A stretch of 42,671 bases of DNA from a virus. Made by a program: the position numbers and the translations under genes. The DNA lies in the IMG/VR virus record IMGVR_UViG_3300045988_003762, positions 1-42,671 of that record; one strand, written 5' to 3'. Positions 1 to 42,671 of the stretch are shown in pieces. Within the stretch, counting starts at the first letter, position 1. Each line of letters opens with the position of its first letter. The notes beneath the pieces were generated by a model, which saw only the letters and a list, made by a program, of their open reading frames with translations, was not told where the DNA came from and did no database searches.

Positions 1-101
1 CAGTTCAGGCGGAAATAGGCAGCATTCCCTAAGTCCACGCCAGACCAGTTCTTCACAGTGAACTGCGTCCAGATGCCGTTCTCATCCTTCACGCCCGACA
101 G
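1..101. repeat. Terminal direct repeat, copy 1 (identical to 42571..42671)
   Basis: Read directly: cagttcaggcggaaataggcagc...cacgcccgacag occurs at both window ends with 101/101 identity. This is typical of the overlap on a circular contig. Confidence 0.95.
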
Positions 102-2994: not shown

Positions 2995-3050
2995 GAAAAA
3001 ACGGCACAGCAAGCCGGGAGAGTTGCGTTCTCCTGCGCTTGCTGCGCCGT
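2995..3050 (-). terminator. Rho-independent terminator after the capsid/129-aa genes
   Basis: Arms 3001..3014 and 3037..3050 pair over 14 bp with one G-U. An inner GGAGA/TCTCC extension adds to the stem. A U6 run follows on the minus strand (plus-strand A run at 2996..3001). Confidence 0.7.
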
Positions 3051-3090
3051 GTCACAGCTGTTTTTCGTGTCTCGCGGTGGTATGCAGTTG

Positions 3091-4816: not shown

Positions 4817-5764
4817 TCAGAAGGAAATGCGATCGCCTCTTGCTACTCTCCGCTCGATCTCCTCAAAGTCTGCTCTCGTCAGCTTCGAGGGGTCGGTTTT
4901 TGTGACAAACGCGCTGTTGGAGCTGGTTCCGTTCTCGGCGGGGCGTTTGCCCTTCGCCCGTACATTGTCGGCCACCTTTTTCTCCGTGCTGGCGGCTGCG
5001 GCCTGTACTGCATTGCCCATCAGCTCGTCGAAATGCAGAACCCGGTATGCGTGCTCCACCGGTGTTCCGGCTTTCAGCAGATTCAGGAAGTCGGGGTTTT
5101 GAAACTCCTGCATCAGGTCGAAGCTCTGGTACATGGGGTTGCCCTTCATGGCCTCTGCCTCTTTGTACCACTTCTCGCCCTGCGCACGGAAGAAATCATT
5201 CTGCTGCTGCTCCTGCTGGCTTCTCAGCAGCTCGGCGTTTTCCCGCTTCAGCTTCCGGAATTCCCTGTACTGGTCTTCGCTCATGCCTGCTTCCTCTGCG
5301 GCTTCGCTCCAGTACGCATGATCGTTGTCCACGGCCTCCAGCAGACGCTTTGCGTCCCCGTCCTGAATGTTGTACCGCTCCATCAGCGTGTCCAGCACCG
5401 GCTGGTATGACTTCATCCGCTGTTCCGTCTCCCGCGCCTCCTTGAAACGCCGGTCGATCATTCTCTGCGTCTCCTGTGTGTACAGGTCTTTGTATTCACC
5501 GTTAATCAGCTCACGGAAAGCCTTTTTCTTGGCTTCCAGCGCGTCGGACGTGGATTCCACGTCCTTTACCTTCTCAGCCCCGGCGTCAGGCTGCTCCTGC
5601 TGTACCTCGCTTTCCGGCTGCTTGCCGTACTTTACGTTGTCCAGCGCGCCCGTTTTGCTCTGGCGGGTGTTACCAGCGCTTGCCTGTGTCTCGCCCTGTG
5701 CGGTGGCGGCTGCCGCCCCATCGCCTCCCTCAAACAGACAGAGGGTCATGTCATAAAGGTACAT
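4817..5764 (-). CDS. Scaffolding protein
   Basis: AAGGAGG RBS. The 315-aa product is acidic, Glu/Lys/Gln-rich and helical, and lies between Prp/portal and the capsid gene. N-terminus is MYLYDMTLCLFEGGDG. Confidence 0.75.
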   Translation of the reverse strand: MYLYDMTLCLFEGGDGAAAATAQGETQASAGNTRQSKTGALDNVKYGKQPESEVQQEQPDAGAEKVKDVESTSDALEAKKKAFRELINGEYKDLYTQETQRMIDRRFKEARETEQRMKSYQPVLDTLMERYNIQDGDAKRLLEAVDNDHAYWSEAAEEAGMSEDQYREFRKLKRENAELLRSQQEQQQNDFFRAQGEKWYKEAEAMKGNPMYQSFDLMQEFQNPDFLNLLKAGTPVEHAYRVLHFDELMGNAVQAAAASTEKKVADNVRAKGKRPAENGTSSNSAFVTKTDPSKLTRADFEEIERRVARGDRISF

Positions 5765-5861
5765 ATCGTTCCTCCTTAAAATGCGCGGGCATATCGCTCC
5801 CGTGTGGCGTCCCTGCTCCTGCGGGATGGCAGCGTCTCATAACCGCCGCCACCCCGCCCGG

Positions 5862-5900
5862 AACAAAAGGGGAGGGGCAGAGTTTCGCCTCTGCACCTCC
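5862..5900 (-). terminator. Hairpin plus U-tract (copy A of the repeated module)
   Basis: GGAGGGGCAGAG (5871..5882) pairs with CTCTGCACCTCC (5889..5900) with one mismatch. CCUUUUGUU follows on the minus strand. Confidence 0.55.
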
Positions 5901-5923
5901 CACAGTAACATTGATTTTTCCCG

Positions 5924-5955
5924 TTTTTCCACTTAAAAGTGGAATTTTCAAAATT
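5924..5955 (-). promoter_or_regulatory. Conserved 32-nt box, copy A (TTTTTCCACTTAAAAGTGGAATTTTCAAAATT on the plus strand)
   Basis: Identical to 10557..10588 except for the central 2 nt of the CCACTT-NN-AAGTGG palindrome. On the minus strand it reads TTGAAA-17 nt-AAAAAC. Confidence 0.6.
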
Positions 5956-6226
5956 TTACAGAAATTTTTCCCGGCGCCATTTTTTCCAGCTGCAAAAAGC
6001 CTATTTTCAGCAGGTCATACAGCCACTTCCCGCCGTGCCATCTGAGGTATGCGTCCCCGCTTTCCAGCTTTTCATACACAAACTCCGCCTCCTGCGTGTT
6101 GTGAAGCCATCCTGCCGCCGTATACATCAGGCAGCTGACCGCTGCACACACATCCGGCGCACCTGTGGCATGTCCCCGGCACCTGACGGAGCAGCTGTCA
6201 CCGCAATGCAGCGTTACCTCCGTCAT
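5948..6226 (-). CDS. prp: Prp-like (ribosomal-processing cysteine protease family, DUF464) phage protease
   Basis: RGHATGAPDVCAAVSCL matches the GHA-x-G-x2-D(I/V)VCAAVS His/Cys signature of Prp/YsxB. ATGA overlap with the portal stop. Size is 92 aa. Confidence 0.7.
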   Translation of the reverse strand: MTEVTLHCGDSCSVRCRGHATGAPDVCAAVSCLMYTAAGWLHNTQEAEFVYEKLESGDAYLRWHGGKWLYDLLKIGFLQLEKMAPGKISVKF

Positions 6227-8157
6227 ACGCTAGGCACGCTCCTTTGCGCCAAAGCCTGCCCGTACCCGGTCATGGGCGTCTGCGCCTCCATAATGCCGCT
6301 TGCAAGTGCGCTGTGCGCCTCCGTTTCACTGCCGCCGGTGTTGTTGCCTTCTGTCTGCCGCGTCTCCTCCTGCGGCATCAGAGCGCCCGTGATTATGGCA
6401 AGCTGCTGCTGCATCTGCATGACCATGTTCAAAAGCGTCTGCCCCTGCATGACCTTCTCCCGCACCGTCTGTATGCCCTCAAAATCCATCATCTCCAGCG
6501 CGATCAGACTGGCCTGCGCGTTCTCCGGGGCGAAAAAGTCCAGGGAATACAGCTCCTTTGCCCGCTCGTTTTGCTCCATGCGGCTGAACGGGTTTTTCTT
6601 CTGCGCCTTGATTTTGAGGTCGAACACCGGACGGCGGTACATCTCGTTGCCCAGCGTGTCAAGCCCCGTCACCTGATCCTGCAAGCCTGCGTTGTCAAAG
6701 GTGACAAACTGATACTCGTTTCCCTCGCCGGTAATGCGGAAGCTGCGGCTCACGTCGTAGAACTGCCGCATCAGCTCCACACACAGCGTGTTGATCTGCG
6801 TATACGCACGATAGCTGGCGGCGATCATGTCACGACTGGCCTTGTTTCCTGCCTCCTGCAAGGCTGCAATCGCCGCTGCTGCGGTCACATTGGTAGTACC
6901 GCCGGAGTTTACGTCCCGGTTGGCCGCCGTGTCCTTCATCTCCTCGATCTTCATCTGCGCCACGGTAACGTAGATATCGGAAAGGGGCTGTGTCACGATT
7001 TCCTTAACGCGCTGATCCCCCAGCTCGCCATTGACGTGTACCATCGGCCGGTTCCAGTCGAGAAATTCTTCTTCGTTTATGGCCGTGCTGTCGCTGACAA
7101 AGAAACGCTTCTTGGTTGCCATCATCGCGTTTTCCAGGATGTTGGCGCTGAGCTTGTCAATGTACAGCTGCGGATCCTTGCATATCGCCACATAGCCGAA
7201 GCCGATGGGTGTGCCTTTCTCCGGGTACATCACGTCCAGCACCACAGGGTACATGCCGTGGTCGTAGAACCCGCGCTCCCGGTATTCCGGGTCGTTCTGG
7301 CTGGCGTACAGCAGGGTTGAGCCTACGAACTTGACGTAGTGCAGCGCCGTCCTGCCGCTGGGTGTCTTGACCTTGTAATACCAGTCCACCACCACGCTCT
7401 TTTCGCTGGTGTCCACGCTGTCGTCATAGATGTACTCTTTCACATCAATGACCTTGCCCTTCTGCTTGCCCTCCAGTTCCGGATATTCCTTGTCCAACAG
7501 GTCGTTGTCCACCAGATCAACAATAAACAGATTCCGGCTCTTCTGGATATCCGTAATGCCCGGTTCCCAAAACAGGTTCAGCAGGTCGATGTCCCTGATT
7601 TCGATGTCACCCAGCCCGTTGTCCTTCTGGCTGTCCCAAAACACACCGTAAGCAGCCGTGCCGTGCTTCAGCTTCTCCCACCAGTTGTCGGAATACACCT
7701 GCTCAAAATGGTTGTGCTCCTGCACCACGGGTAGGATCTGGCTCAGCGTCTTTGCGCTCTGCTCGTCGCTTTCCTCACGCGGCAAAACCACCGGCTCCGG
7801 GTAGTTGTCCATAGCGTCTGCGTGCTTGTTCTGGATGGTGTTGAACAGCCATGCCGACGTGGGCTTGGGCTGCGGCGGTGTAGACTTGACCTCCTTGCCG
7901 CTTCTGTCCACCCGCTTGGCCTTGCTCTGGCCGATGCCCTCCCAGTGCCGCAGCTCCCACCACAGCTCATCGTTGACGATGCGGCTTTCCAGATTGCTCT
8001 TGCCGTCCTTGTACTTTGTCAGCAGATCAATGCCGCGCTCCACGTCCTTGTCCGTGATCATGGGCGCATCCTCCGGCCTCGTCAGCAGCATAGCCGCCAT
8101 CTCCGGCGACATGTCCTGCTCCTGCTCCGTTATGCCGGGCACTCCGAATCTCTCCAT
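6223..8157 (-). CDS. Portal protein
   Basis: 644 aa, immediately after terL. GAGGAGGAAG RBS precedes MERFGVPG; the longer track ORF would overlap terL by 130 nt. Confidence 0.8.
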   Translation of the reverse strand: MERFGVPGITEQEQDMSPEMAAMLLTRPEDAPMITDKDVERGIDLLTKYKDGKSNLESRIVNDELWWELRHWEGIGQSKAKRVDRSGKEVKSTPPQPKPTSAWLFNTIQNKHADAMDNYPEPVVLPREESDEQSAKTLSQILPVVQEHNHFEQVYSDNWWEKLKHGTAAYGVFWDSQKDNGLGDIEIRDIDLLNLFWEPGITDIQKSRNLFIVDLVDNDLLDKEYPELEGKQKGKVIDVKEYIYDDSVDTSEKSVVVDWYYKVKTPSGRTALHYVKFVGSTLLYASQNDPEYRERGFYDHGMYPVVLDVMYPEKGTPIGFGYVAICKDPQLYIDKLSANILENAMMATKKRFFVSDSTAINEEEFLDWNRPMVHVNGELGDQRVKEIVTQPLSDIYVTVAQMKIEEMKDTAANRDVNSGGTTNVTAAAAIAALQEAGNKASRDMIAASYRAYTQINTLCVELMRQFYDVSRSFRITGEGNEYQFVTFDNAGLQDQVTGLDTLGNEMYRRPVFDLKIKAQKKNPFSRMEQNERAKELYSLDFFAPENAQASLIALEMMDFEGIQTVREKVMQGQTLLNMVMQMQQQLAIITGALMPQEETRQTEGNNTGGSETEAHSALASGIMEAQTPMTGYGQALAQRSVPSV

Positions 8158-8168
8158 GTGCTTCCTCC

Positions 8169-9611
8169 TCAGTATACTTGATAAAATGCGTACCGGCTTG
8201 GCTTGTACTCGTCCTCTGTCTCCAGCGGGGAGTATGGCCGCTCCACCGTCCTGTATGTGTCTCTGGGGCCTATGGGGTTTTTCATGCACACATACCGGCA
8301 CATGTCGTAGATATGATCCTCTCCATCTGTGTCGATGTCCTCCACGTCCGTCTGGTCATATACCAGGTTCGGCACCGTCCGTATAAAGTGCTTGCAGGTG
8401 TTAAACACATACAGCATGGGCACCCCGTCTTCGTCAAAAGCCAGCCGGTGATGCACCTGCATCTTTCCGTTAATTCGGGCATGGTCGCCCTTCTCGAAGT
8501 ACACCCTCTGCCGCTCCATCAGCGCGCCCACACTCTCCGTACCGTCGCTTTGCCAGATGGCCGGGTCACCCACCCGGTGTATCTGCCTTCCCCGCAGGTT
8601 GGGATCGTCCTTTTCTATGCGCCGTATCTCCTGCGCCACCCTTGACGGTTCCCACATCACGCCCTTGTTGGGCGTGCCTGTGCAGCCGTACAGCTCCCGG
8701 ATATAGTACATCCGCCTGTTTCTGTCCACGGCAAACCACCCAACAGCAAAGGGGCGTGAATAGCCCCAGTCCAGTCCACACCAGATTACCCAGTCCTCCG
8801 GCACCCGGAACGGCGCGATCACATGGGTGTTCTTCCTGTCGATGTAGTGGTCGCTGTCGTTGCGCCACTCTGTGAACACCTGCCCCTCGAAGCTGTCCCA
8901 GTTGCCGTACAGCAGGGCATTTCGCTCTGCCTCAGGCATGCTGGCCAGCCGCTGGACGTACATGGGGTCGTTTTCCATCAGTATCTTATTGTCAAACACC
9001 GAGGACGGCACGAAAATCCGCTTCTGCTCCCCGGTGTGCTGCCTGCCGTCCGGCGTATACCACGTCGCCGTTTCCGTGATGGTGTGCATGGGCGGCGCCG
9101 CCGTGATGAAGCGCTCCTTTACCCAGCCATGCCCAATACCTCCCGGATTGGCCGTGGAGCGCATATACACCCGCGTACCAGCTCCGTTGGGTCGGTTACG
9201 GGATTTCAGATACTCGTATTCCTCTTGCGTAAAGTGCGTCAGCTCATCAAAAGCGATAAAGTCATAGGCCTGCCCCTGATATTGTATCTTGTCCTGGGGT
9301 CTGTTCATGCTGCCAAACACGATCTGCGCACCGGACGGAAACCGCCATGTGTGGTTGCTGCCGTTATATCTGGCCTTGGGGTATACCCGCGGGTAATAGT
9401 TCAGCGTCTTGTCGATCAGCTCCCGCAGCTGTGGGAACGTCTTGCGCAGGATCAGCGCCTTGTACCACGGGATATGCACCTGCCGCAGCGCCTCTATCAC
9501 CAGCGCATCGCTCTTCCCTCCGCCGGCAGCACCGCCATACAGCGCCTCATACTCTGGCCTCGCCATAAATATGGCCTGCCGCTCCTGCGGACGCCATACC
9601 ACGCTACTCAT
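8169..9611 (-). CDS. terL: Terminase large subunit
   Basis: Walker A YGGAAGGGKSD near the N-terminus. The 480-aa size and the position between terS and portal fit. Confidence 0.9.
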   Translation of the reverse strand: MSSVVWRPQERQAIFMARPEYEALYGGAAGGGKSDALVIEALRQVHIPWYKALILRKTFPQLRELIDKTLNYYPRVYPKARYNGSNHTWRFPSGAQIVFGSMNRPQDKIQYQGQAYDFIAFDELTHFTQEEYEYLKSRNRPNGAGTRVYMRSTANPGGIGHGWVKERFITAAPPMHTITETATWYTPDGRQHTGEQKRIFVPSSVFDNKILMENDPMYVQRLASMPEAERNALLYGNWDSFEGQVFTEWRNDSDHYIDRKNTHVIAPFRVPEDWVIWCGLDWGYSRPFAVGWFAVDRNRRMYYIRELYGCTGTPNKGVMWEPSRVAQEIRRIEKDDPNLRGRQIHRVGDPAIWQSDGTESVGALMERQRVYFEKGDHARINGKMQVHHRLAFDEDGVPMLYVFNTCKHFIRTVPNLVYDQTDVEDIDTDGEDHIYDMCRYVCMKNPIGPRDTYRTVERPYSPLETEDEYKPSRYAFYQVY

Positions 9612-10032
9612 CTTTGACCTCTGGCATCAGTACCACGCCGATCTCCTGCCGGTCAGTCTCCGGCGCTTTCTCGCGCCACCCGAAATTGCAGCTCAAACTA
9701 AACTTTGCGCCGTTCGCACCGTCACGGTCATACAGCCGCGCCTCTGCGTATTCCTCGCACATGGACTTCGCGCGCGTGACCGTGTCCGTAAACTCAGGCC
9801 TCGCCTGGTAATCGATCAGTGCTTGCCTGCCCGTAAACCCCAACGCCAACGCAAGCCCCGTTATCGTGGGCGGCTTCTGCCCTATCAGGATAACGTTGCC
9901 GTATTTGTCCATAATGGGCTGACCATCATCGCCAATAATAGGTTCTCCCTTGCAGCTGATAAAGTAAGCGTCAATGGCTTCCTGCATTTGCTTGACGCTT
10001 TTGTATTTTCTCGGGCATCCTACCTTTGCCAT
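9604..10032 (-). CDS. terS: Terminase small subunit
   Basis: MAKVGCPRKYKSVKQMQEAIDAYF is a typical terS N-terminal HTH. The gene overlaps the terL start. The start could also be the ATG at 10089. Confidence 0.75.
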   Translation of the reverse strand: MAKVGCPRKYKSVKQMQEAIDAYFISCKGEPIIGDDGQPIMDKYGNVILIGQKPPTITGLALALGFTGRQALIDYQARPEFTDTVTRAKSMCEEYAEARLYDRDGANGAKFSLSCNFGWREKAPETDRQEIGVVLMPEVKDE

Positions 10033-10490
10033 TTTGCTCACTTCCTTTCTTGTCTGACGCACCGGCCTCCCACCGCTGGCCTTTGTCATTGCCGCGTCCT
10101 TCCCCGGCTTTCGCCACACCTGTATTCATGTCTTCCCTGGGACACATTGCAAAGAGGTGTGGGAAGTCCTGTCTAAAGTAAGCAGACTATTTGGGACGCG
10201 TCCCTTGCAGCGGTCTGCCAGCGCAATCACACCGCGCTGCGCCTTTTCATCAGCCTCACACTGTTTTTGCGGATTAACTGTCCGCCGCTGTGGCCACAGC
10301 TTGTGTGCGCTTAACTTCTCGCGCTTCCTCGCCCGCTTGTGTGACTGGTACGGCATTGCAGTCCTGCCCTGCTTTAGCGCTTCAGGGAAAGTCCCCGTCA
10401 CTCGCTGTGGTCTCCCATTGCTGGGCACCTATGCCGCATATTGCTCCCTCCGGGCGGAGCCGAAGCCCCGCCCATCAGGAAAAGAAGGGG

Positions 10491-10537
10491 GAAAAGAAAA
10501 AAGATGGAGATGCAGAGTTCGCCCTGCATCTTCCATC
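10491..10537 (-). terminator. Strong rho-independent terminator (copy B of the repeated module)
   Basis: On the minus strand: GATGGAAGATGCAG-loop-CTGCATCTCCATC followed by UUUUUUCUUUUC. Confidence 0.8.
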
Positions 10538-10556
10538 ATAAAGTGCGTTTTTTCAA

Positions 10557-10588
10557 TTTTTCCACTTTTAAGTGGAATTTTCAAAATT
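10557..10588 (-). promoter_or_regulatory. Conserved 32-nt box, copy B
   Basis: TTTTTCCACTTTTAAGTGGAATTTTCAAAATT sits immediately after the XRE stop codon. On the minus strand it reads TTGAAA-17 nt-AAAAAT. Confidence 0.6.
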
Positions 10589-10820
10589 ATTTTTCGGCAA
10601 TATCTACCACGCAGGGATAGTCCGTCCTGCCCATCAAATAGTCCACCGACACGCCAAATTCATCCGCTATGCTCTTCAACGCATCCATCGTCGGCTTCGC
10701 CGTGCCCAGCTCATACCGGCGTATGGCGTCCGAATTCAGCCCACAGCGTTCCGACAGCACATACCGCTTCAGTCTCTTTTTCTCCCGCAGCTTTCTCAGC
10801 CGTTCCGGGAATTCGCTCAT
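10587..10820 (-). CDS. XRE-family HTH regulator (77 aa) directly upstream of the late genes
   Basis: GAGGAGG RBS before MSEFPERLRKLREKKRLKRYVLSERCGLNSDAIRRYELG, the classic HTH_3 pattern. Confidence 0.8.
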   Translation of the reverse strand: MSEFPERLRKLREKKRLKRYVLSERCGLNSDAIRRYELGTAKPTMDALKSIADEFGVSVDYLMGRTDYPCVVDIAEK

Positions 10821-20041: not shown

Positions 20042-20217
20042 TTCTTTTCCTCCCATGCGTCCACCGTTCGTATGCAGCCATCGCACCCAACGGTTTCGCC
20101 GTAAATATTCTTGTACAGGGTATCTGTTTCCTCGCCGCACACGGGGCATCGCGGAACCTTGTAATCTTTCGGTTCTGCCGGCCTTTCCGGCTCCCAGTAT
20201 TCCATTACGCTTCTCAT
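20038..20217 (-). CDS. Unlisted zinc-ribbon protein (59 aa)
   Basis: Hand translated: MRSVMEYWEPERPAEPKDYKVPRCPVCGEETDTLYKNIYGETVGCDGCIRTVDAWEEKK. ATGA overlaps at both ends. Too short for the ORF track. Confidence 0.65.
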   Translation of the reverse strand: MRSVMEYWEPERPAEPKDYKVPRCPVCGEETDTLYKNIYGETVGCDGCIRTVDAWEEKK

Positions 20218-20732
20218 ACCGGCCTACCAGCCGCTTTAAGCACGTCCCGCATGGGCTTCCGCGCCTTGAGTATGGACATAGCCCGCGCCGTCTCCCGCCT
20301 GTATTGCCGCCACAGGTCGCTCAGCTCGTCACTCTGGTAGTATCCGTCCCCGTCATTGCAGATCATCAAGCCCTGCTTCTTTGCCTCGGCCACGGCCTTT
20401 CGCATCTTCCGGTCGGTGGTGTGCAGCGCCGCCGCCAGGTCTTCCCGGCTGATGGCGTTCCTGCGCCCGCTGGGTATCAGACCGGCGATCCGCTCCGTCT
20501 CCGCCGTCCGCTGGGGAATGTCGGCTTTCTCGTCCTCGCCGAACAAATACGCCCTGCTTGTCCGCAGCGCCGTCTCCAGCGCTGTCATGACCTCCTCTGT
20601 GGGCAGGCACGCGCCGTTTTCAAACCGGCTCACCATGCTCACGTCCATCCGTTGGTCTGCCAGCTTCAAAATGCCGCTGACCGCCTCCTGCGTCAGCCCC
20701 AGCTCCAGCCGCCGTTCCTTCAGTCGGTTCAT
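20214..20732 (-). CDS. XRE-HTH protein with a C-terminal winged-helix-like domain (172 aa)
   Basis: GGTGGAGG RBS before MNRLKERRLELGLTQEAVSG. Confidence 0.75.
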   Translation of the reverse strand: MNRLKERRLELGLTQEAVSGILKLADQRMDVSMVSRFENGACLPTEEVMTALETALRTSRAYLFGEDEKADIPQRTAETERIAGLIPSGRRNAISREDLAAALHTTDRKMRKAVAEAKKQGLMICNDGDGYYQSDELSDLWRQYRRETARAMSILKARKPMRDVLKAAGRPV

Positions 20733-21592
20733 TTCTGTACCTCCACCCATTGACCGTTCTTAACGGTGTACCAAACGCCGGGTTTCAGCGTTTCACCATC
20801 CACGATGCCAGCAAGGATGGAGGCGATCTCTCCATTACCCCTACGCTCTACGCAGACAATAGCGTTGCCGATATCACCCATAACGAGGCCAAAAAAGCCG
20901 GTTGTCATAGCCACACAATATTTGCCGGTGGCGGATGCTGCGCCCCTCCAGCCGGTGGCAGATGCTGCGCCCCTCTCACCGGTGGCGGATGCTGCGCCCC
21001 TCTTACCGGTGGCAGATGCTGCGCCCCTCTCACCGGTGGCGGATGCTGCGCCACTCTCGCCGGTGGCAGATGCTGCGCCACTCCAGCCGGTGGCAGATGC
21101 TGCGCCCCTCCAGCCGGTGGCAGATGCTGCGCCACTCCAGCCGGTGGCAGATGCTGCGCCACTCTCGCCGGTGGCGGATGCTGCGCCACTCTCGCCGGTG
21201 GCAGATGCTGCGCCACTCCAGCCGGTGGCGTGGTTTTTCTTCTCGTCGTTCGCTTTCTTGATTGCGTTATCAAAACCGCACTGTGCCTTAACGTACTCCA
21301 CCTGTGCTTTGACCAGCCCCGGAATACCGATCTCCGCGCTCAACGTCAGCTTCTTGCCGACGCGCTTCGTGTCATTGCTACGCTTCTCACTGCTGGCATC
21401 CTCCAGCTCCGCTTCAAAATACCGGGAGCCATCACCGGGCACGTAGTAACCCAGAACATCCAATGGCATTTCGCAGGCATGCAGCCCATTTTTGCACAAT
21501 TCAATATCGCCATTGACCTCCGCCGTCTTGCCAAGCTCATACTGGAATCCACGGCATTTCATGTCTTTGTCTGTTGCCTTGTAAACCTTCAT
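20729..21592 (-). CDS. DUF7666-like protein with 11 tandem nonapeptide repeats (G-x-x-GAASAT)
   Basis: AAAGGAGTGGAG RBS. The N-terminus MKVYKATDKDMKCRGFQYELGKT...LHACEMPLDVLGYY matches a widespread uncharacterised phage/bacterial family, as I recall it. Confidence 0.7.
   Translation of the reverse strand: MKVYKATDKDMKCRGFQYELGKTAEVNGDIELCKNGLHACEMPLDVLGYYVPGDGSRYFEAELEDASSEKRSNDTKRVGKKLTLSAEIGIPGLVKAQVEYVKAQCGFDNAIKKANDEKKNHATGWSGAASATGESGAASATGESGAASATGWSGAASATGWRGAASATGWSGAASATGESGAASATGERGAASATGKRGAASATGERGAASATGWRGAASATGKYCVAMTTGFFGLVMGDIGNAIVCVERRGNGEIASILAGIVDGETLKPGVWYTVKNGQWVEVQK
20925..21221. repeat. 11 x 27-bp near-perfect tandem repeat (coding)
   Basis: Units of ccggtggc[a/g]gatgctgcgcc[c/a]ctc[c/t][c/t][a/c][g/a] were read consecutively, with a partial 12th unit after 21221. 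Confidence 0.95.
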
Positions 21593-30148: not shown

Positions 30149-30222
30149 ACACACCACTAACGCCGCCGTACCCCCTTTCGGCGGCAAATAAAAAGCCACA
30201 CCTTTTCAGGTGTGGCTTTTTT
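30149..30222 (+). ncRNA. Candidate ~75-nt small RNA (two hairpins)
   Basis: The predicted start is about 7 nt after the -10 element. Hairpin 1 is GCCGCCG-UACCCCCUUU-CGGCGGC (30162..30185). Hairpin 2 is the terminator. Confidence 0.45.
30190..30222. terminator. Bidirectional rho-independent terminator
   Basis: AAAAAGCCACACC-TTTTCAG-GGTGTGGCTTTTTT. T runs follow the stem on both strands. The stop codon of the 83-aa minus-strand gene lies in the loop. Confidence 0.85.
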
Positions 30223-30457
30223 CCGCGTTCAGCCCGTCTGCAATTTTTCGGTATGCCCTGCGCCGGCATCGTTTTACCACGTCCACAGACACGTTCATGC
30301 GAAATGCCTGCTCCACGCAGCTCCGCCGCCGCACATCGCACTCCGCGATGCACTGGGCTTCCTCCTGGGGTAACTCAAAAGATTGGATCCATGCGATAGC
30401 CCTCTTGGGTGCCATGCCCTGCAGCATGGCGCGAATTTCCCTGTGCTCCTGCTTCAT
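30206..30457 (-). CDS. Small sigma-70 region-4-like HTH protein (83 aa)
   Basis: LPQEEAQCIAECDVRRRSCVEQAFRMNVSVDVVKRCRRRAYRKI fits the LP...S..E.A......S...V.....RA pattern. The RBS is weak. Confidence 0.5.
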   Translation of the reverse strand: MKQEHREIRAMLQGMAPKRAIAWIQSFELPQEEAQCIAECDVRRRSCVEQAFRMNVSVDVVKRCRRRAYRKIADGLNAEKSHT

Positions 30458-30540: not shown

Positions 30541-33500
30541 TTATTGGTTCCGCATTTTGCGAAGTTCCTGCTGTACCAGCGCCTTGTTGTAGTGGATGAT
30601 CTTTTTCCCCACGCCCATTGCGGAGAATAGATATTGCCGCTGATCGCTTGTCAATCCGCCAATGGAATAGATTTGCTCCATGACCAACAGCCCCTTGCTG
30701 TTTGCGATGGTCTCGCCGTTCTTGTCTTTCAGGGATTCCACGTCGCTTGTTTTCGCCCTTGCGATGACGTAATCGGTGGCGCTTATGCCCTTCTTTTCTC
30801 CGGCAACTGCCTTTGTCACCCACGATTCCGGCTCGTATTTGCTGACATTTGATTTTGCGATCTGGTCTGTAAGCGTATAGAGATCCTTTACGCACTGCAC
30901 CTTTTCCTCATTTGTCAGCTTTTTGTACTCGGAATCCCTTGTCAAAGCTGTAAGACGCTTATACGCACCTTGCCCCTTTTGCTGGGCATACTTCACGTAA
31001 TCGTCGGAACCGAGAGTGACCGACTCTCCATTGACAGTAAAGTTCTTGCTGGCTCTGCTGGGGAATACAGCTTCACCGGTGGCATTGTACAACCGCATGA
31101 GTTCCTTTTCCATCGGGCTTTCGTCGATCTTGGATGTATAGGCGGGATTGAGGAAGTTGTTGAACGCACGTTCTCCCGGCTTCCCCGTCAGCTCTGTTCT
31201 GCCCCATGCGTCGATGTATGGTATCTGGTTGTAATCCCAGCCGGGGATCCTCGCGCTGGCTTTGCCCACCGCATACTGCATATCAGGCGTGAGATACTTG
31301 TTGTTTTTGTTTGTGTACGTTGTGTAGCGCTTGCCCTCTCCGGTGCGTTCTGCCTGTCCCAGCAGAGTAGGGAACGCCTGTGTCAGGTAGCTGGTGGCGG
31401 CACTGGCAATCGCCTTGGGCAGCGCGGCGATACCATCACTCTTTGCATAACCTACAACGTCAAAGATGGCGTTCAGGCTTTGCAGACAGCTCATTTCGAG
31501 CAGCGGCTCCGACACATTGGAAATGGCTGTAAGCAGCTCGGAAAGCGTCAGAGATTCCTTTCCGCCGTTTGTCTCCTCCCACAGGTTTACACCGATAAAC
31601 AGCGGCAAGCACTCAGGCGCCAGCCAGTCCAGCGTAATACTTGTGCCGTCCGGCAGCTCCAGCGAGTACGTCTGATGGCCTTGCAAATCTTCAAACTCGC
31701 GCTTGTCGTCGTCATCGCCGCCGTGCCCACGCAAAAGCGCCTGCGACGCAAGATACACGCCAAGCCCCAGCAGGCCGGTGCCTGTAAGCCCGGCAGAAAT
31801 GGAATCAATGGCCTCTGCCCCTGTTTTCTTCCCGGTTCTCACGTCCCACAACGCTTGTTTAATGCCGTTCGCAAGCCCGAGAGGGCTGTACTCCACGCCG
31901 CGCATAAGAATGTTGGCGGGAGTTTTGCGGAACGGGAGTATGCCCTCGATAATGCCAGTGGCGATTTTCTCCACGCCGGTCTTGCTGCCGCGCCGCCTGC
32001 CGATCTCACTGACAAACTGCGAAAAGGCGTTGGTGTCGCGGTATGTGGCCTTTTGCGCTTCTTTAACGGCATACTTTCGCGCTTTTTCTATGCCCTTGCC
32101 CTCGGCGATCATCTCGGCGGTAATGCCATTCGCCTTGCAATACTGCGCCATAGCGTATGCGTAGTGCGGCTTGGAAAACCACATATCCTCCGTTTCAAGG
32201 GCGGCGCTGTTAAATCTTCTCGCTTTTTCCAGTCCCTGGCTTACCTGTTTAAGGCCCGGCATCTTGCTTTGGAAAATGACGCGCCCTTCCTCGATCGCTT
32301 TATTGGCGTTGGCAAACTCACTGTATTTCCCGCCGCCCATTGCCACGTCCTGAATTTTATCAAAGTCCGCAGCAGCAGCACTAAACAGCGCTCTCCCGCC
32401 TTTACCGGAGACAAATGCCTTGCTGCGGCTCAGCTTGCCTCCAGAAACTTTGTTCACGCCCGCTTCAATTCCTGTGGCGATGGCATTTTTTACCGCCACA
32501 ACAGGGGCAAACCCGGCGTTGCCGACAATGTTTCGGATGTGTGTTCGCGCATTGCCCAGCATAGCCAGATACCGCCACGCGTTCCATTTGTCAATGAACC
32601 GGGAGGGCATTTGACGGCCAATGTCGCGGTAGATGTCGGTCAGAACGTTATCCCGCTCCGTCTGATCTTTCGCCCGCAAAAACCGCTCCGCCAGCTCCCG
32701 ATCGATCTTGAGCTTAGGGGACTTTTTATCCCCGTACCGCTTGTTGATCTCCTCCTGCAAATTCTTTACGCTGCGCTGTACCTGATACAGCTGTGTCTCC
32801 GGGCTGAGCTTTTTCAATATGCGCGTGGCTTGCAGGGCTTGTGCTGCGCTGCGCTGGTGCTCCACCATATTGTTCAGTATGGTTAGCGCTGTAGCGGTGT
32901 CTCCACTGTTGGCTGCGTTGTTATACAGCGCCCAGCCCATCGCCGTGTTTTCCTTGGACACATTTCCTCTGCGCACGTTGTCTGTCCACGAGGTAAGCGC
33001 TTGCGCCCAGCCCACGTCCTTGATTTTTGTCTCTGCGTCAGAAATGGCCTGCTTGTCAGAATATGTCTCATAGGAGTATTCGCCGCGCAGGGCCAGCTCT
33101 TCGATGGTAGGGACGATCTCATCAGGCGTGGCGTTTGCTTCAAGTATCGTGCGTACCGTCTGCGACACCTTTTCCTTGTCACTGGTTTTGCGGGGGAGCC
33201 GTACCTGCCGTGTGGCATTTTCGCCCTCCGGGATTTTGCCGTATCTGCGAATATAGGTGTCGCGCAGATCCTCCAGCTCATCGGGGAGCCGCTGTGTCTC
33301 CCGCAGTTGAAATCTGGCACCCTCTACGCTGTTCACGGCATCCAGTCTGGCTTTTTCATCTCCGCTGGCATACTCGATCATCCGCACACCAGCGTTTTTC
33401 AACGCTGCCTTTACCTCCGCACTGGCATCGTTAGGGATAACCGCCGCCAACACTTCATCAAAACCTACGGCTCTTTGCGGCTTTGCCTCGAAATACCCGG

Positions 33501-36500
33501 TCGGCATATTGGAAATGTCTTCATACAGCTGCAGCACTTTTTCCGCCGTATCCGGTTTGATTTGCAGTGTGGGATATGTCCGCAGCTCTTTATCAATTCC
33601 CGCTACCGTCCGTTTTGTCCGCAGCGTCTCTACAATAGCCGACGCCGCATCGTCCGATGCGATAAACTCGTTCCTTGCTGCAGGATCCTTGATCTCGTTG
33701 GTCAGCTCCGCAAGGCGTTCAGAATACTTCTGCCGGATAGCGCTGTATTCTTCCTCGGTCATTTTCTGCAGCCGCCCGGAGTCGGCCTTGATCTCGTCAA
33801 TAGAGCCGTAATCCTTTGACGCAACACCCCAAATTGCCTGGCCACCAAAGAATGTGTTGGCACCCTTCTGATCGCCTTGCTTCATCGCCTTAACAATGTT
33901 TTCCAGCGTGATCTCATAGTGCGTTGCCGAAAAACTCCTGCGATTGCCGGAGGATGTATAGTAGTCTTTCCCGTTGTAAATGCCCTCGTTTTTTACAACA
34001 CCGTCAAACAGATTATCCAGCCATTGCTCGTACTCCTTCTGATTTACCTTGTCGCGGATAGCTTTGTTGGTGGCGGCCCTGTCCACTTCTTCCGTCACAG
34101 TTTCCGTGTTACCGGCCAGATATTTCCGCGTATCCAACATATACCGCATTTTTGCCGCAACGGTTTCTGCGTTTACCACATCGGCCGCATCCTTTGCAGG
34201 CAGCCCCAGCTTTTCGTAGTATTTTTGCAGTGCGGCGTTCAGCGCTTCGCCGTGTTCCTTGTGCCACAGTTTTCTTGCCGCAATAGGCGACTCGCCGCCC
34301 TTTGCGCGAAAATCGTTTACAGTGCTCTCCCCCAATTCGCGGATCAGGAACGATGCCATTTCCTGCTGGTTGTCATCCATGCGTGTGACTTCGCGCTTCA
34401 TTACGTTTTCTACCGCACCCCGCCCGGTATCTTCCAGATAAATGTTCATCACGCGCGGGTCGTCGCGCATTGAGCTGATGATTTTATCTACGCCGCCCTT
34501 CCGGTTCAGCTCGTCCTCCAGCGTGTTTGCCGCAGAATATAAGGGGTCTGCAAAGCTCCTGCCTTTCGACCGCTCCATACGGTAAAACAGGTCGTGGATC
34601 TTCTTGGCGGATTTCTCATTCACCTCGTACTCAATTTGCGGGGCAGTTGGTGTCCATGCGTCGTAACCGTACACCTTGTTGCTGCGGAACAGCTGCGGGT
34701 CAATGGTGTCCTTGCTGAACACAAACGAAATGTCGCCGTACTCGCCGTGGCCTTCGTCTGCCTTTACGATGGCAATACTAGGCATGGGAAGTCCGCCCAG
34801 TTTTGCGGCATCCAGCAGGTTCTTTTCTGTCAGGTTATGCAACGCCAGCAGGTTTTTTGTTTCCTCCACAGGTGCTTTCAGTGAGAACTTCGGCTTGACA
34901 TTTTCGCCATCGGTGGGTATACTATTAACAGAAGCATTCCCCAACAGAGCGCCGGAGTTTCCGGAAGAGCCAGCAATTCGGGGGGTGCTTCTTTCTTGCA
35001 TTTTCCCGATATTGTAGACAATGCTCCCATCCTTACCCAGCGCAACGGAAATGCGCGTTCGATAATACTTTCCATCGAAATCCATGAAATATGCCGTTCG
35101 ATAGTTCCAGCCGTCTTTTGCCATGTCCCCATGTCGTCCGGCTTCATCAAGAACAGTCTCCCCACCTCGTACAGATACCTTTATCAATTCGTCAATATGC
35201 GATGCGGCGTTTGCCTTTCGTTCAAAAGTTTCATCGCTCATTGTCTGTCCGTAATTATTATATCTGCTGCTGAGTTTTCCGGCTGACGTCCTCGTAAGAA
35301 TGAGGATGTCCCCATCTTCGGCTATCAAGCGCACATCTTCATTGTTCCGGATTTTTCCGTTGATGTAGTTCTCCAATTGTTCGCTCCATGCCACAGGATC
35401 GTTGCCAAATAGCACTTGCCTGTCCGCCTGGACATATTTCATGCCATTGGGGAACTGATTGATCTGATACTTTGCACCGTCGCCCTCACCGGCGGCGGTT
35501 TTTGTTTTCTCCGCCTGCCGCTTCGCCGCGTCAAATGCTTCCTGCCACTTCTGCGCCACCGCCTCCAGCTCCGCAAAGTCATTGCCGTAAGCCTCCTGCG
35601 CCGCCACATCTCTGGCCTTGCCGGTAAAGATGGACTTAACCTTTGCGATGAACTCCTTCAAACTGTCCAGCAGCTTTTGTGCCGCCGTGCGGTTGCGCTG
35701 GGAAAACTCACGGAACAGGTCAGGGTTTTCCATCATGTTCCCGGCGAAATCCGCCGCGATCTCGTCCATCACCTCGTCCTGCGTAAGCGTCACGCCGGAG
35801 CTCTCCGCCTTTTCCCTGTACCACTCCACGACCTCGGCCATTTCGTCAATGCCCTTTTCGCTCATACGGTTCTCCATAGCCGCCTGGCGGAATTTTCTGT
35901 ACTCGGCAGGGGAGAGGTCTTGCATACGGTGTGTGACCTCGTGCGCAGCTACGTTCAGATAGGGCTTGTTGCTGTCTACGGCAATCTGGATCAGGTTTTT
36001 ATCCCTGATGTACTGGCCGTTGGCCTGACCGCCCATAACGCTGTCCACGAACTCGATACGCACACCCAGCTTTTTGCCCATCGCGTTCAGCGTGGCCGCC
36101 GTGCGCTTGCTTTTGGCGATGACCGCGCGGGAATAGACGTTATCCGCCAGACCTGCGCCCGCAGTGGTGGTCACGCTCTTTACCTCCGCGTTCTCCCGTG
36201 CCACCTGTGTTGCCGCGTCTTCCAGCCCGGCATTATACGCCGCGTATCTCTGCTCCGGTGTCAGCATGGCCGCATACGCGCCCTTCGCCTTGCTTGCTTC
36301 AATGCCGTTCAGCCCGGCATTGTACACACTGGAGAATCCTGCGTACAGAGTGGGCACGTCATCTGCCGTCCGGCTCATCTCCTGATACGCTTTCTGCCCA
36401 GCTTCCAAAAAGCCGCCTGCGGGCTTCTGTGCGCGTTTATGCGTGACAGGGGTAGCCGTGGTGCCCTGCGTCTGCGCCTGCGTCGTGTCGCGGCTTGCAA

Positions 36501-42518: not shown

Positions 42519-42671
42519 TCAGGTGATCTCCTCGTTGACCGTGATGATGCTATCGCCGCTGATCTCCGCGCAGTTCAGGCGGAAATAGGCAGCATTCCCT
42601 AAGTCCACGCCAGACCAGTTCTTCACAGTGAACTGCGTCCAGATGCCGTTCTCATCCTTCACGCCCGACAG
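42519..42671 (-). CDS. Tail fibre 3' end (continuation of feature 1..2975; 42571..42671 duplicates 1..101)
   Basis: The same frame continues through the repeat: ...YFRLNCAEISGDSIITVNEEIT, with the stop TGA at 42521..42519. Confidence 0.8.
   Translation of the reverse strand: MSGVKDENGIWTQFTVKNWSGVDLGNAAYFRLNCAEISGDSIITVNEEIT
42571..42671. repeat. Terminal direct repeat, copy 2
   Basis: Identical to 1..101. Confidence 0.95.

What the first reader, a model, noticed from the sequence alone, without database searches (positions are those of the whole stretch)
5862..5955. Duplicated ~95-bp box-plus-terminator module in front of both the packaging genes and the head genes
Two copies lie at 5862..5955 and 10491..10588. 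Each starts at the stop codon of the preceding gene (prp, and the XRE regulator). Read on the coding (minus) strand, each contains three parts in order:
- a 32-nt block that is identical in both copies except for the central 2 nt of a CCACTT-NN-AAGTGG palindrome;
- about 20 nt of related sequence;
- a stable hairpin followed by a U tract.

The box also reads as TTGAAA-17 nt-AAAAA(C/T), a possible activator-dependent promoter. A conserved protein- or RNA-binding site placed directly before an intrinsic terminator, at the entry to terS and again before scaffold/capsid, is the layout expected for antitermination or other gated control of late genes (as in lambda pR'-qut-tR'). I do not recognise this box from known systems.
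Basis: seen in the sequence. Interest (0 to 1): 0.66.

Follow-up and report, generated by a model that had tools for sequence, protein, structure and literature searches.

The report
Phage late promoters with embedded terminators
The duplicated box is most likely the binding site and core promoter through which a small Cro-like phage protein turns on the packaging and head genes; the hairpin after it probably stops upstream transcripts while the promoter's own transcripts start inside it and escape, a compact but not fundamentally new form of late-gene control.

Summary
Two about 95-nt modules on the minus strand share a 32-nt block that is identical except for 2 central nt, and each is followed by a hairpin and U tract.

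Comparison of 33 box variants from related gut Clostridia phages changes the interpretation:
- The 18-bp palindrome TTCCACTT-NN-AAGTGGAA always lies 21 (rarely 22) nt upstream of a TAnnnT hexamer.
- Weak hexamers carry a TGn extension. No good -35 is present.
- The dyad centre falls near -41.

This is the geometry of an activator-dependent sigma-A promoter, as in Mu C late promoters or lambda cI at PRM.

The adjacent 77-aa Cro/C1-type XRE protein is always the last early gene before terS. Its two residues at the start of the recognition helix co-vary with half-site position 3. In one sister phage both boxes switched CCAC to CCCC together with the protein.

The terminator is a separate element:
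- Where the box abuts the XRE stop codon, the hairpin starts within -6 to +3 nt of the -10 end, so the predicted start site lies in its 5' arm.
- Where there is room, the terminator sits before the box and none follows it.

Antitermination is therefore not needed. This is a new variant of known late-activator systems. All function is inferred from sequence.

The parts
10587..10820 (-). 77-aa Cro/C1-type (XRE, HTH_3) protein, the proposed late-gene activator that binds the box. It is the last gene of the early/replication block.
   Evidence: Pfam HTH_3 at 1.2e-10. AlphaFold model has pLDDT 83 and five helices, with the recognition helix at residues 32-38. Closest folds are P22 c2, 434 Cro/repressor, SinR and the controller proteins C.AhdI and C.Csp231I. 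Homologues are always the last early gene before terS/terL. Residues 29-30 co-vary with the box.
10576..10588 (-). Copy B: conserved upstream A/T element AATTTTGAAAATT, about -62 to -50 relative to the predicted start. It overlaps the last 2 nt (AA) of the XRE stop codon TAA (10589-10587).
   Evidence: Information content is 1.2-1.6 bits per position across 33 variants. Its role is inferred (UP-like, or an extended operator).
10560..10577 (-). Copy B: 18-bp operator palindrome TTCCACTT-AA-AAGTGGAA, with its centre at about -41.
   Evidence: Conserved at about 2 bits per position. Half-site position 3 changes symmetrically in relatives.
10535..10540 (-). Copy B: -10 hexamer TATGAT, 21 nt after the palindrome core. 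The hexamer at the -35 position, GGAAAA/TGGAAA (10564-10558), is poor.
   Evidence: The scan tool lists TGGAAA-18-TATGAT. TAnnnT sits at fixed spacing in 33 variants.
10492..10537 (-). Copy B: intrinsic terminator. The 15-bp stem with loop is at 10537-10503 and the tail U6CU4 at 10502-10492. It ends the early (XRE) transcript. The predicted late start site, about 10528 (+/-2), lies in its 5' arm.
   Evidence: dG -21.9 kcal/mol. An RNA truncated at the predicted start keeps only a -8.9 kcal/mol hairpin, 8 nt from the U tract.
10452..10473 (-). Copy B: second GC-rich hairpin GGGCGGGGC-UUCG-GCUCCGCCC in the late leader. It is followed by a remnant of a tRNA-like element and about 300 nt of leader before terS.
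   Evidence: The 100-aa ORF at 10126-10428 has a poor coding score and no family match.
5943..5955 (-). Copy A: upstream A/T element AATTTTGAAAATT. It contains the prp stop codon TGA (5950-5948).
5927..5944 (-). Copy A: operator palindrome TTCCACTT-TT-AAGTGGAA.
5902..5910 (-). Copy A: extended -10, TGtTACTGT (hexamer at 5907-5902), 21 nt after the palindrome core.
   Evidence: Family variants read TGgTACCGT.
5862..5901 (-). Copy A: intrinsic terminator, with hairpin at 5901-5870 and tail CUUUUGUU. It ends the terS-terL-portal-prp unit. The predicted start site, about 5895 (+/-2), lies in its 5' arm.
   Evidence: dG -23.0 kcal/mol. The truncated RNA keeps a -10.0 kcal/mol hairpin, 7 nt from the U tract.
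5821..5857 (-). Copy A: second GC-rich hairpin in the leader of the scaffold gene (start codon ATG at 5764).
2995..3052 (-). Further intrinsic terminator (13-bp stem, U6) after the 131-aa gene that follows the capsid gene. No box is attached, so this is the probable end or attenuation point of the unit started at box A.

Best explanation
Each module is an activator-dependent late promoter for the host sigma-A RNA polymerase, with an intrinsic terminator nested in its initially transcribed region.

A dimer of the adjacent 77-aa Cro/C1-type protein is proposed to bind the 18-bp palindrome. The palindrome overlaps the missing -35 element, and its centre lies near -41. From there the dimer would recruit or stabilise polymerase at the TAnnnT (or TGnTAnnnT) -10 element 21 nt downstream. 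Mu C does this at Mu late promoters, and lambda cI does it at PRM.

Box B would start the unit leader-terS-terL-portal-prp. Box A would start the scaffold-capsid unit afresh.

The hairpin plus U tract terminates transcripts arriving from upstream: the early operon at B and the packaging unit at A. Its 5' arm begins at the -10, so transcripts initiated at the box lack the lower half of the stem. They keep only a short 5' hairpin 7-8 nt away from the U tract and should not terminate.

Shown by sequence and comparison:
- the anatomy of the modules and their conservation;
- the fixed spacing of palindrome and -10;
- the co-variation of protein and box;
- the alternative placement of the terminator.

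Inferred, not shown:
- that the XRE protein binds the box;
- that it activates rather than represses;
- the exact start site;
- the immunity of late transcripts to the terminator.
For: 1. Promoter geometry.
- In 33 distinct variants the palindrome is followed after 21 nt (22 in two) by a hexamer with information content T1 1.2, A2 1.8 and T6 2.0 bits, and 0.1-0.6 bits in between.
- A TG at -15/-14 accompanies 19 of 25 weak hexamers but only 1 of 8 good ones, p=0.0026.
- The hexamer at the -35 position is GGAAAA or GGAATT.

2. The box acts as DNA.
- In L117, L139, L140, L147 and 12 further lineages a terminator lies between the XRE stop codon and the box, and no hairpin follows the -10.
- In L117 the box is followed by a tRNA gene and then terS.

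3. The XRE protein is the likely regulator.
- Homologues at 58-84% identity are always the last early gene before terS/terL, even when the packaging and head modules are unrelated, with P22, SPP1 or portal_3 type portals.
- Of 34 XRE lineages examined, 3 (L362, L230, L234) showed no recognisable box downstream.
- Within the otherwise invariant helix-turn-helix, only residues 29-30 vary. They sit at the N-cap of the recognition helix.
- Asn29 goes with CCAC in both half-sites in 4 of 5 lineages. Other residues do so in 2 of 27, p=0.002.
- L145 belongs to the same phage family but has His-Leu at positions 29-30. Both its copies read CCCCTTAAAAGGGG.

4. The terminator is separable from the box and constrained in position.
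- Where the box lies 16 nt or less from the XRE stop codon, 16 of 17 variants have a hairpin of -14 to -29 kcal/mol with a T-rich tail starting -6 to +3 nt from the -10 end.
- Where the box lies 45 nt or more away, 0 of 16 do, p=1.5e-8.
- Hairpin sequences are unrelated between lineages.

5. Known precedents.
- Mu late promoters have a -10, no -35, and a dyad at -52 to -34 (PMC2582627).
- The XRE protein has a predicted pI of 9.0.
Against: - There are no transcript data, so the start site is inferred only from the usual distance of about 7 nt from the -10.
- In some lineages (L133) the hairpin truncated at the predicted start site is still strong (-21.9 kcal/mol) and only 3 nt from the U tract. 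Escape from termination may therefore not be general.
- The recognition code is not clean. His-Pro and Ser-Ser proteins occur with CCAC, hybrid or CCTC/CCGC sites.
- The lineages are related, so the Fisher tests overstate independence.
- The loci were found through XRE homology, so co-occurrence of protein and box is partly by construction.
- Promoters with an extended -10 can work without an activator, so repression rather than activation is not excluded.
- Only two boxes exist in the genome. The tail, virion and lysis genes have none, so these promoters cannot account for all late expression unless transcripts read through the terminator at about 3000-3050.
Confidence: 0.62

Rival explanations
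1. A promoter upstream (TTGAAA-17-AAAAAC/T) makes a short transcript that stops at the hairpin. A factor bound to the box, as DNA or as an RNA hairpin, modifies polymerase so that it reads through, as in lambda pR'-qut-tR' control by Q.
For: - The order box, then hairpin, then U tract is conserved in 16 of 17 lineages where the box abuts the XRE gene.
- The palindrome can fold as a 7-bp RNA hairpin.
- The scan tool lists TTGAAA-17-AAAAAT for copy B.
- In L133 a transcript started at the -10-derived site would still meet a strong hairpin close to the U tract.
Against: - The proposed -10 lacks its final T in the window's copy A and is not conserved (L137 has AATTTG).
- Sixteen lineages keep the box and TAnnnT with no downstream terminator at all.
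- No Q-like or other antiterminator family was found among the genes scanned around the boxes.
- The hairpin begins at the -10, not tens of nucleotides downstream as antitermination would need.
Confidence: 0.1
2. The promoter anatomy is the same, but the XRE protein is a repressor or timer. It would occlude an activator-independent (extended -10) promoter, or block early read-through, rather than activate.
For: - Most Cro/C1-type proteins of this size are repressors. The closest folds are P22 c2, 434 Cro, SinR and ImmR.
- 20 of 33 variants have TGn, which can replace a -35.
- The best NCBIfam similarity, below cut-off, is to RstR repressors.
Against: - A repressor encoded in the early lytic operon would be absent in a lysogen. 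Terminase and capsid promoters would then be left on in the prophage (inference).
- Variants with a good -10 but no TGn still lack any -35.
- The gene sits where the known late activators sit, as the last early gene just before terS (PMC3753634).
- A dyad centred near -41 is the classic activating position. This rests on textbook knowledge and on Mu C.
Confidence: 0.15
3. The box is bound by some other factor and not by the adjacent XRE protein. Candidates are the sigma-r4-like 83-aa protein (30206-30457), the 178-aa HTH protein (20214-20750), the CI-like repressor or a host protein.
For: - Family II of the known late regulators (LtrA) is sigma70_r4-like, and the window encodes such a protein.
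- The residue-to-base correlation for the XRE protein is imperfect.
Against: - The XRE protein is the only gene consistently next to the box across lineages with otherwise different neighbours.
- Both boxes and residues 29-30 switch together in L145.
- The palindrome's half-sites lie about 10 bp apart, which fits a Cro/C1 dimer (inference from the folds).
- The sigma-r4-like gene lies 20 kb away, after the virion genes.
Confidence: 0.08
4. The module is an RNA element. It would be a structured 3' UTR or small RNA ending the XRE and prp messages, consisting of two hairpins and a U tract, with no promoter function.
For: - The module folds better than shuffled sequences (z -3.2 and -5.9).
- The symmetric change CCAC to CCCC would also preserve an RNA stem.
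Against: - No Rfam family matches at the gathering or relaxed threshold.
- In 16 lineages the terminator precedes the box, so the box is not part of that transcript.
- The conserved TAnnnT/TGn pattern has no role in an RNA model.
- The central dinucleotide is free to flip between TT and AA.
Confidence: 0.05

Closest known systems
Phage Mu late promoters (Plys, PI, PP, Pmom) activated by the C protein
   Same: - Several late promoters share a recognisable -10 and lack a -35.
- An imperfect dyad overlaps the -35 region (-52 to -34; footprint -30 to -55).
- The dyad is bound by a small dimeric helix-turn-helix activator made in the preceding transcription phase (PMC2582627).
- Here the dyad spans about -49 to -32.
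   Different: - C belongs to the Mor/C family. The protein here has a Cro/C1 (HTH_3) fold.
- The hosts are Gram-positive Clostridia.
- Here there are only two promoters.
- A terminator is nested at the start site.
Ltr superfamily of late transcriptional regulators in phages of Gram-positive bacteria (RinA, ArpU, LtrA, LtrB, LtrC)
   Same: - A small basic protein is encoded as the last gene of the early cluster, immediately before terS.
- It acts on a site just upstream of terS to switch on packaging and morphogenesis genes (PMC3753634).
   Different: - Ltr proteins are about 130 aa and share a sigma-r4-like C-terminal domain. The protein here is 77 aa, HTH_3 only, and matches none of the five families.
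- Ltr proteins bind direct repeats. The site here is an inverted repeat.
- A second copy before the scaffold gene is not described for Ltr.
Cro/C1-type activators at sites overlapping -35: lambda cI at PRM and restriction-modification controller (C) proteins
   Same: The fold is the same; C.AhdI, C.Csp231I, P22 c2 and 434 proteins are among the best structural matches. A dimer on a palindrome next to or over the -35 activates by contact with sigma region 4; this mechanism is from my own knowledge and was not tested here.
   Different: Those proteins control their own genes or an immunity or restriction-modification switch, not phage morphogenesis genes. Sequence identity is only 20-30%.
Lambda Q / pR'-qut-tR' late antitermination
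   Same: [quoted passage not shown] A DNA site at the late promoter is followed by a terminator before the late genes.
   Different: - No Q-family protein is present.
- Here the terminator starts at the -10 instead of tens to hundreds of nt downstream.
- Relatives work without any downstream terminator.
Coupled or overlapping terminator-promoter pairs in bacteria
   Same: The termination site of one unit and the initiation site of the next share the same few tens of base pairs. A 2026 preprint titled 'Widespread coupling of promoters and terminators of transcription in bacteria' appeared in the search, but only its title and opening lines could be read.
   Different: Here the order is promoter elements first and terminator stem second, with the start site apparently inside the stem. 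I could not check whether that arrangement is among those described.

Membership tests
Activator-dependent (class II-like) sigma-70/sigma-A promoter | A recognisable -10 hexamer (TAnnnT) at a fixed position | tested here: met
   All 33 variants have it. Information content is A2 1.8 and T6 2.0 bits. TGn compensates for weak hexamers, p=0.0026.
Activator-dependent (class II-like) sigma-70/sigma-A promoter | Poor or absent -35 hexamer, overlapped by a dyad-symmetric activator site centred near -41.5 | tested here: met
   The -35 position reads GGAAAA or GGAATT. With a start site 7 nt after the -10, the palindrome spans about -49 to -32 with its centre at about -40.5. The start site itself is inferred.
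Activator-dependent (class II-like) sigma-70/sigma-A promoter | Transcription depends on the bound activator | not testable with these tools
   Needs a reporter assay or in vitro transcription.
Ltr superfamily (RinA/ArpU/LtrA-C) | [quoted passage not shown] | tested here: met
   The protein has 77 aa and a predicted pI of 9.0. Its position is conserved in all lineages examined.
Ltr superfamily (RinA/ArpU/LtrA-C) | Sequence membership in RinA, ArpU, Sigma70_r4 (LtrA), DUF1492 (LtrB) or LtrC, with the shared C-terminal domain | tested here: not met
   Pfam, PHROGs and NCBIfam give only HTH_3-type matches. The fold is Cro/C1.
Ltr superfamily (RinA/ArpU/LtrA-C) | Binds a direct-repeat region upstream of terS | tested here: not met
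   The conserved element is an inverted repeat. Binding itself was not tested.
Lambda Q-type antitermination module | Q-family antiterminator protein encoded next to the late promoter | tested here: not met
   No such family was found among the genes flanking the boxes or in the early region scanned.
Lambda Q-type antitermination module | A terminator downstream of the late start site that must be overridden | tested here: not met
   It is absent downstream of the box in 16 of 33 variants. Where present, it overlaps the -10 and the predicted start site.
Intrinsic (Rho-independent) terminator | GC-rich hairpin immediately followed by a U tract | tested here: met
   dG is -21.9 and -23.0 kcal/mol, with tails U6CU4 and CUUUUGUU. 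One compensatory pair distinguishes the two copies.
Any described RNA family (Rfam 15) | Covariance-model match | tested here: not met
   There was no hit at gathering score over the whole window. At E<=1 over 5700-10650 the only hit was a chance-level SL1 match.
Cro/C1 (HTH_3, XRE) DNA-binding domain | Five-helix domain with a helix-turn-helix motif, binding palindromes as a dimer | tested here: met
   Pfam HTH_3 at 1.2e-10. The model has pLDDT 83 and five helices. TM-scores to P22 c2, 434 Cro and C.AhdI are 0.72-0.81. Dimerisation and binding were not tested.

The most novel reading that the evidence does not exclude
A one-way valve built from one hairpin. The late promoter's start site sits inside the 5' arm of an intrinsic terminator. 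The same 35 nt would then stop every transcript arriving from upstream, let the promoter's own transcripts pass, and leave them with a protective 5' stem-loop.

This layout recurs in at least eight lineages with unrelated hairpin sequences, always within -6 to +3 nt of the -10. It is driven by a previously unrecognised family of 65-80-aa Cro-like late activators. Residues 29-30 of these proteins read half-site position 3 (Asn with A, His-Ser with C).
Probability: 0.45. Interest if true: 0.6.

Novelty: new variant of a known kind. Interest (0 to 1): 0.5.

Why it matters
Late-gene control is essentially uncharacterised for the abundant temperate phages of gut Oscillospiraceae and other Clostridia.

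If the model holds, it provides:
- a regulator family;
- its operator, with a partly readable recognition rule;
- two defined late promoters.

Such parts could be used to annotate hundreds of gut phage genomes (308 relatives in IMG/VR alone). They could also help predict induction-dependent packaging and transduction, and serve as orthogonal switch parts for Clostridia.

The nested promoter-terminator also shows how a compact genome can insulate successive transcription units without spending intergenic space. It would explain how scaffold and capsid genes can be expressed separately from terminase and portal genes.

Tried and rejected
1. Known RNA families. Rfam at gathering score over the whole window and at a relaxed threshold over 5700-10650 gave nothing usable. 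No tRNA is present in the window.

2. Near-identical DNA in GenBank phages. Only short, unannotated fragments matched.

3. A pattern meant to exclude the window's own family (TTCCACTTNNAAGTGGAAB). It failed because the palindrome matches on both strands, and one IMG/VR scan was wasted.

4. The search for related loci with the mixed XRE alignment. It returned only the close family. Two sub-alignments were needed to reach divergent lineages.

5. A simple one-residue recognition code (Asn = A, His = C). It was rejected as too clean, because His-Pro and Ser-Ser proteins break it.

6. A serine-invertase crossover site, suggested because the two cores are reverse complements with an asymmetric central dinucleotide. 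It was dropped. The flanks are in direct orientation, no recombinase is nearby, and relatives have TA, CT or AT centres.

7. An apparent block of plus-strand genes at 228-2949. It was rejected. The window is a circular genome, and a 1049-codon minus-strand ORF crosses its ends.

8. The 100-aa ORF between box B and terS. It is probably not a gene, given its poor coding score and lack of family hits.

9. The 2026 preprint on promoter-terminator coupling. It could not be opened.

Full report
**1. Observation**

Read on the minus strand, both copies are as described.

A 32-nt block, AATTTTGAAAATTCCACTT-NN-AAGTGGAAAAA, lies at 5955-5924 and 10588-10557. It is identical in the two copies apart from the central TT versus AA. 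That difference makes the two 14-bp cores exact reverse complements of each other.

A 30-nt pattern allowing 3 mismatches finds only these two places, against none in 100 shuffles. The 18-bp palindrome alone gives the same result.

The prp stop codon TGA lies inside the A/T element of copy A. The XRE stop codon TAA abuts that of copy B.

About 20 nt of loosely related sequence follow. Then come homologous hairpins of -23.0 and -21.9 kcal/mol with U-rich tails. One A-U to G-C compensatory pair distinguishes the two hairpins.

Gene context is XRE, box B, leader, terS, terL, P22-type portal, Prp, box A, scaffold-like protein, major capsid.

**2. The genome**

The window carries a 101-bp terminal direct repeat, so it is a complete circular assembly of 42,570 bp.

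It is a temperate phage:
- Integrase and a CI-like repressor are on the plus strand at 25.0-26.8 kb.
- ERF, SSB and Gp157 are in the early block.

Everything else runs on the minus strand. This includes a 1049-codon ORF that crosses the window ends.

MAG hits place the host in Clostridiales/Oscillospiraceae.

The XRE gene (10820-10587) is the last gene of the early/replication block.

**3. Close relatives**

An exact scan of IMG/VR found the box in 99 stretches, all from one family of human-gut phages. The copy after the XRE gene always has AA at the centre, and the copy after prp always has TT. These relatives are too similar to say which letters matter.

**4. Divergent relatives decide the interpretation**

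XRE homologues at 58-84% identity were traced to their contigs and to IMG/VR. This gave 33 distinct box variants.

*Gene position.* The homologue is always the last early gene before terS/terL. This holds even when the packaging and head modules are unrelated, with P22, SPP1 or portal_3 type portals.

*Palindrome.* It is kept at about 2 bits per position, except half-site position 3 and the central 2 bp.

*The -10 element.*
- Exactly 21 nt after the core (22 nt in L144 and L053) there is a hexamer with T1 1.2, A2 1.8 and T6 2.0 bits and almost no information in between. This is the signature of a -10 element.
- Examples are TATCAT, TATGAT, TACTGT, TACCGT, TAGCGT, TAGAAT, TACAAT, TAACAT, TAAAGT, GACAAT and TAATTT.
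- Weak hexamers are preceded by TGn in 19 of 25 cases. Good ones are in 1 of 8, p=0.0026. This compensation is expected only of working promoters.

*The -35 position.* It reads GGAAAA or GGAATT, formed by the right end of the palindrome.

*Geometry.* With a start site 7 nt after the -10, the palindrome spans about -49 to -32. This matches the dyad that Mu C uses at the -35-less Mu late promoters (-52 to -34; PMC2582627). It is also the classic position for class II activators, which I state from my own knowledge.

The window's own copy A lacks the final T, and L137 reads AATTTG.

**5. Which protein binds the box**

Within the helix-turn-helix SE(R/L)CGL-xx-DA(I/V)RRYE, only the two x residues vary. 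In the AlphaFold model (pLDDT 83) they are residues 29-30, at the N-cap of recognition helix 32-38. The fold matches P22 c2, 434 Cro/repressor, SinR and the restriction-modification controller proteins C.AhdI and C.Csp231I.

Co-variation with the box:
- Asn29 goes with CCAC in both half-sites in 4 of 5 lineages.
- Other residues do so in 2 of 27 lineages, p=0.002, uncorrected for phylogeny.
- His-Ser proteins mostly have CCCC/GGGG, fully in 6 variants, with three hybrids (CCAC in one half-site).
- The window's protein is overall closer to His-type proteins (75-84% identity) than to the other Asn-type proteins (63%). The association therefore does not simply follow ancestry.

The strongest single case is L145. 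It has the same phage architecture and an XRE protein 84% identical, but with His-Leu at 29-30. Both of its copies, after the XRE gene and after prp, read CCCCTTAAAAGGGG. A concerted change at two sites together with the protein points to one shared trans-acting factor.

The rule is not clean. His-Pro and Ser-Ser proteins occur with CCAC, hybrid or CCTC/CCGC sites.

**6. The terminator is a separate element**

- Where the box begins 16 nt or less after the XRE stop codon (17 variants), 16 have a hairpin of -14 to -29 kcal/mol with a T-rich tail. It starts between -6 and +3 nt from the end of the -10.
- Where the box lies 45 nt or more from the stop codon (16 variants), a terminator lies between the stop codon and the box. 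None follows the -10, p=1.5e-8.
- In L117 the order is XRE, terminator, box, tRNA-Ile, terS.

The box therefore works without a downstream terminator, which removes the need for antitermination. The terminator serves the upstream transcription unit. It can lie on either side of the promoter.

When it lies downstream it is always pushed against the -10, although the hairpin sequences of different lineages are unrelated. The simplest reason is that the start site must fall inside the 5' arm.

In the window, an RNA starting 7 nt after the -10 keeps only a hairpin of -8.9 (B) or -10.0 (A) kcal/mol. That hairpin lies 8 or 7 nt from the U tract, which is not the anatomy of an intrinsic terminator. 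It is also a plausible 5' stabiliser.

This step is inference, and L133 is a partial counter-example. Its truncated hairpin is -21.9 kcal/mol and only 3 nt from the U tract.

**7. Resulting model for this phage**

- Early transcription ends at the hairpin of module B.
- The XRE protein, made last in the early operon, activates box B, which drives the leader, terS, terL, portal and prp.
- That unit ends at the hairpin of module A.
- Box A starts afresh for the scaffold, capsid and a 131-aa protein.
- A third terminator without a box follows at about 3050-2995.

A separate strong start for scaffold and capsid fits their far higher copy number per virion (inference).

An activator is favoured over a repressor because a repressor encoded in the lytic early operon would be absent in the lysogen.

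No further boxes exist. Virion, tail and lysis genes must depend on read-through or on promoters not recognised here.

**8. Comparison with known systems**

*Function.* This matches the late-activator logic of Mu C and of the Ltr superfamily of Gram-positive phages. [quoted passage not shown]

*Membership in the Ltr superfamily fails.* The protein is HTH_3 only, and the site is an inverted repeat, not a direct one.

*Membership in a Q-type antitermination module fails on two features.* There is no Q protein, and the terminator is dispensable.

*Conclusion.* This is best filed as a new variant of a known kind: a Cro/C1-type late activator with a class II-like operator, plus a nested terminator.

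**9. Limits**

- Everything about function is inferred from sequence. No transcript, binding or genetic data exist.
- The loci were collected through XRE homology, and the lineages are related. The statistics are therefore descriptive.
- Of 34 lineages, 3 (L362, L230, L234) showed no recognisable box.

Noticed in passing
Related loci: L015 3957, L133 7372, L135 7408, L143 678, L144 5081, L145 1511, L146 7360, L305 1872; remnant in window at about 10443-10429 (-): A 63-67-nt tRNA-like element (TATGCCGC...CATGCGGCA, often ending in CCA) sits in the late-operon leader downstream of the box. It has an invariant 7-bp acceptor-like stem, and 6 of its 17 pairs show compensatory changes. It has no D arm, and ARAGORN does not call it. 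The window keeps only the fused ends, AATATGCGGCAT. True tRNA genes occupy the same leader in L117, L132, L133 and L141.
   Followed up: partly
window 1-101 and 42571-42671; ORF 3095 -> 1 / 42570 -> 42519 (-): A 101-bp terminal direct repeat shows that the window is a complete circular genome of 42,570 bp. A 1049-codon minus-strand ORF crosses the ends and is missed by ORF listing. The long plus-strand ORFs at 228-2949 are shadows of it. Third-codon-position mismatch periodicity fits the minus-strand frame.
   Followed up: yes
window 2995-3052 (-): A strong intrinsic terminator (13-bp stem with an inner hairpin, then U6) follows the 131-aa gene after the capsid gene. No box or promoter is attached. 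It probably lowers expression of the downstream virion genes.
   Followed up: partly
window 5943-5955 and 10576-10588 (-), and the same position in relatives: The A/T element just upstream of the operator (AATTTTGAAAATT; consensus AAATTTT.AAAATT) is itself palindromic. It is conserved at 1.2-1.6 bits per position across lineages, more than a generic UP element would need. Its role is unknown: alpha-CTD contact, an extended operator or a second factor.
   Followed up: no
window 10120-10430 (-): The leader of about 300 nt between module B and terS holds conserved non-coding blocks shared in mosaic fashion with distant relatives. Examples are CAGCGAGTGACGG..GAAGCGCTAAAGCAGGGCAGGA.TGCAATGC with L142, and GCGCTGGCAGACCGCTGCAAGGGACGCGTCC with L143. 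The 100-aa ORF there is probably not a gene.
   Followed up: partly
window 10474-10502 (-) and the equivalent position in relatives: A pyrimidine-rich tract of about 25-30 nt (CUUUUCCCCCUUCUUUUCC) regularly follows the terminator, before a GC-rich hairpin, in lineages of this architecture. Its function is unknown.
   Followed up: no
L134 7935-9059 and L135 2859-3971: IS605-type OrfB/TnpB (Cas12f-like) genes are inserted in these related phages. In L134 the insertion lies in the late leader between the box and terS.
   Followed up: no
window 30206-30457 (-): An 83-aa protein has weak similarity to sigma-70 region 4 (Pfam E 0.005; PHROG 'sigma factor' 6e-5), the domain type of the LtrA late regulators. 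It is encoded after the 2434-aa virion gene, far from terS. It is a candidate regulator of genes that lack a box.
   Followed up: no
window 30541-37845 (-): A single 2434-aa ORF lies within the virion-gene block of a 42.6-kb genome with a P22-type portal. It was not characterised here.
   Followed up: no
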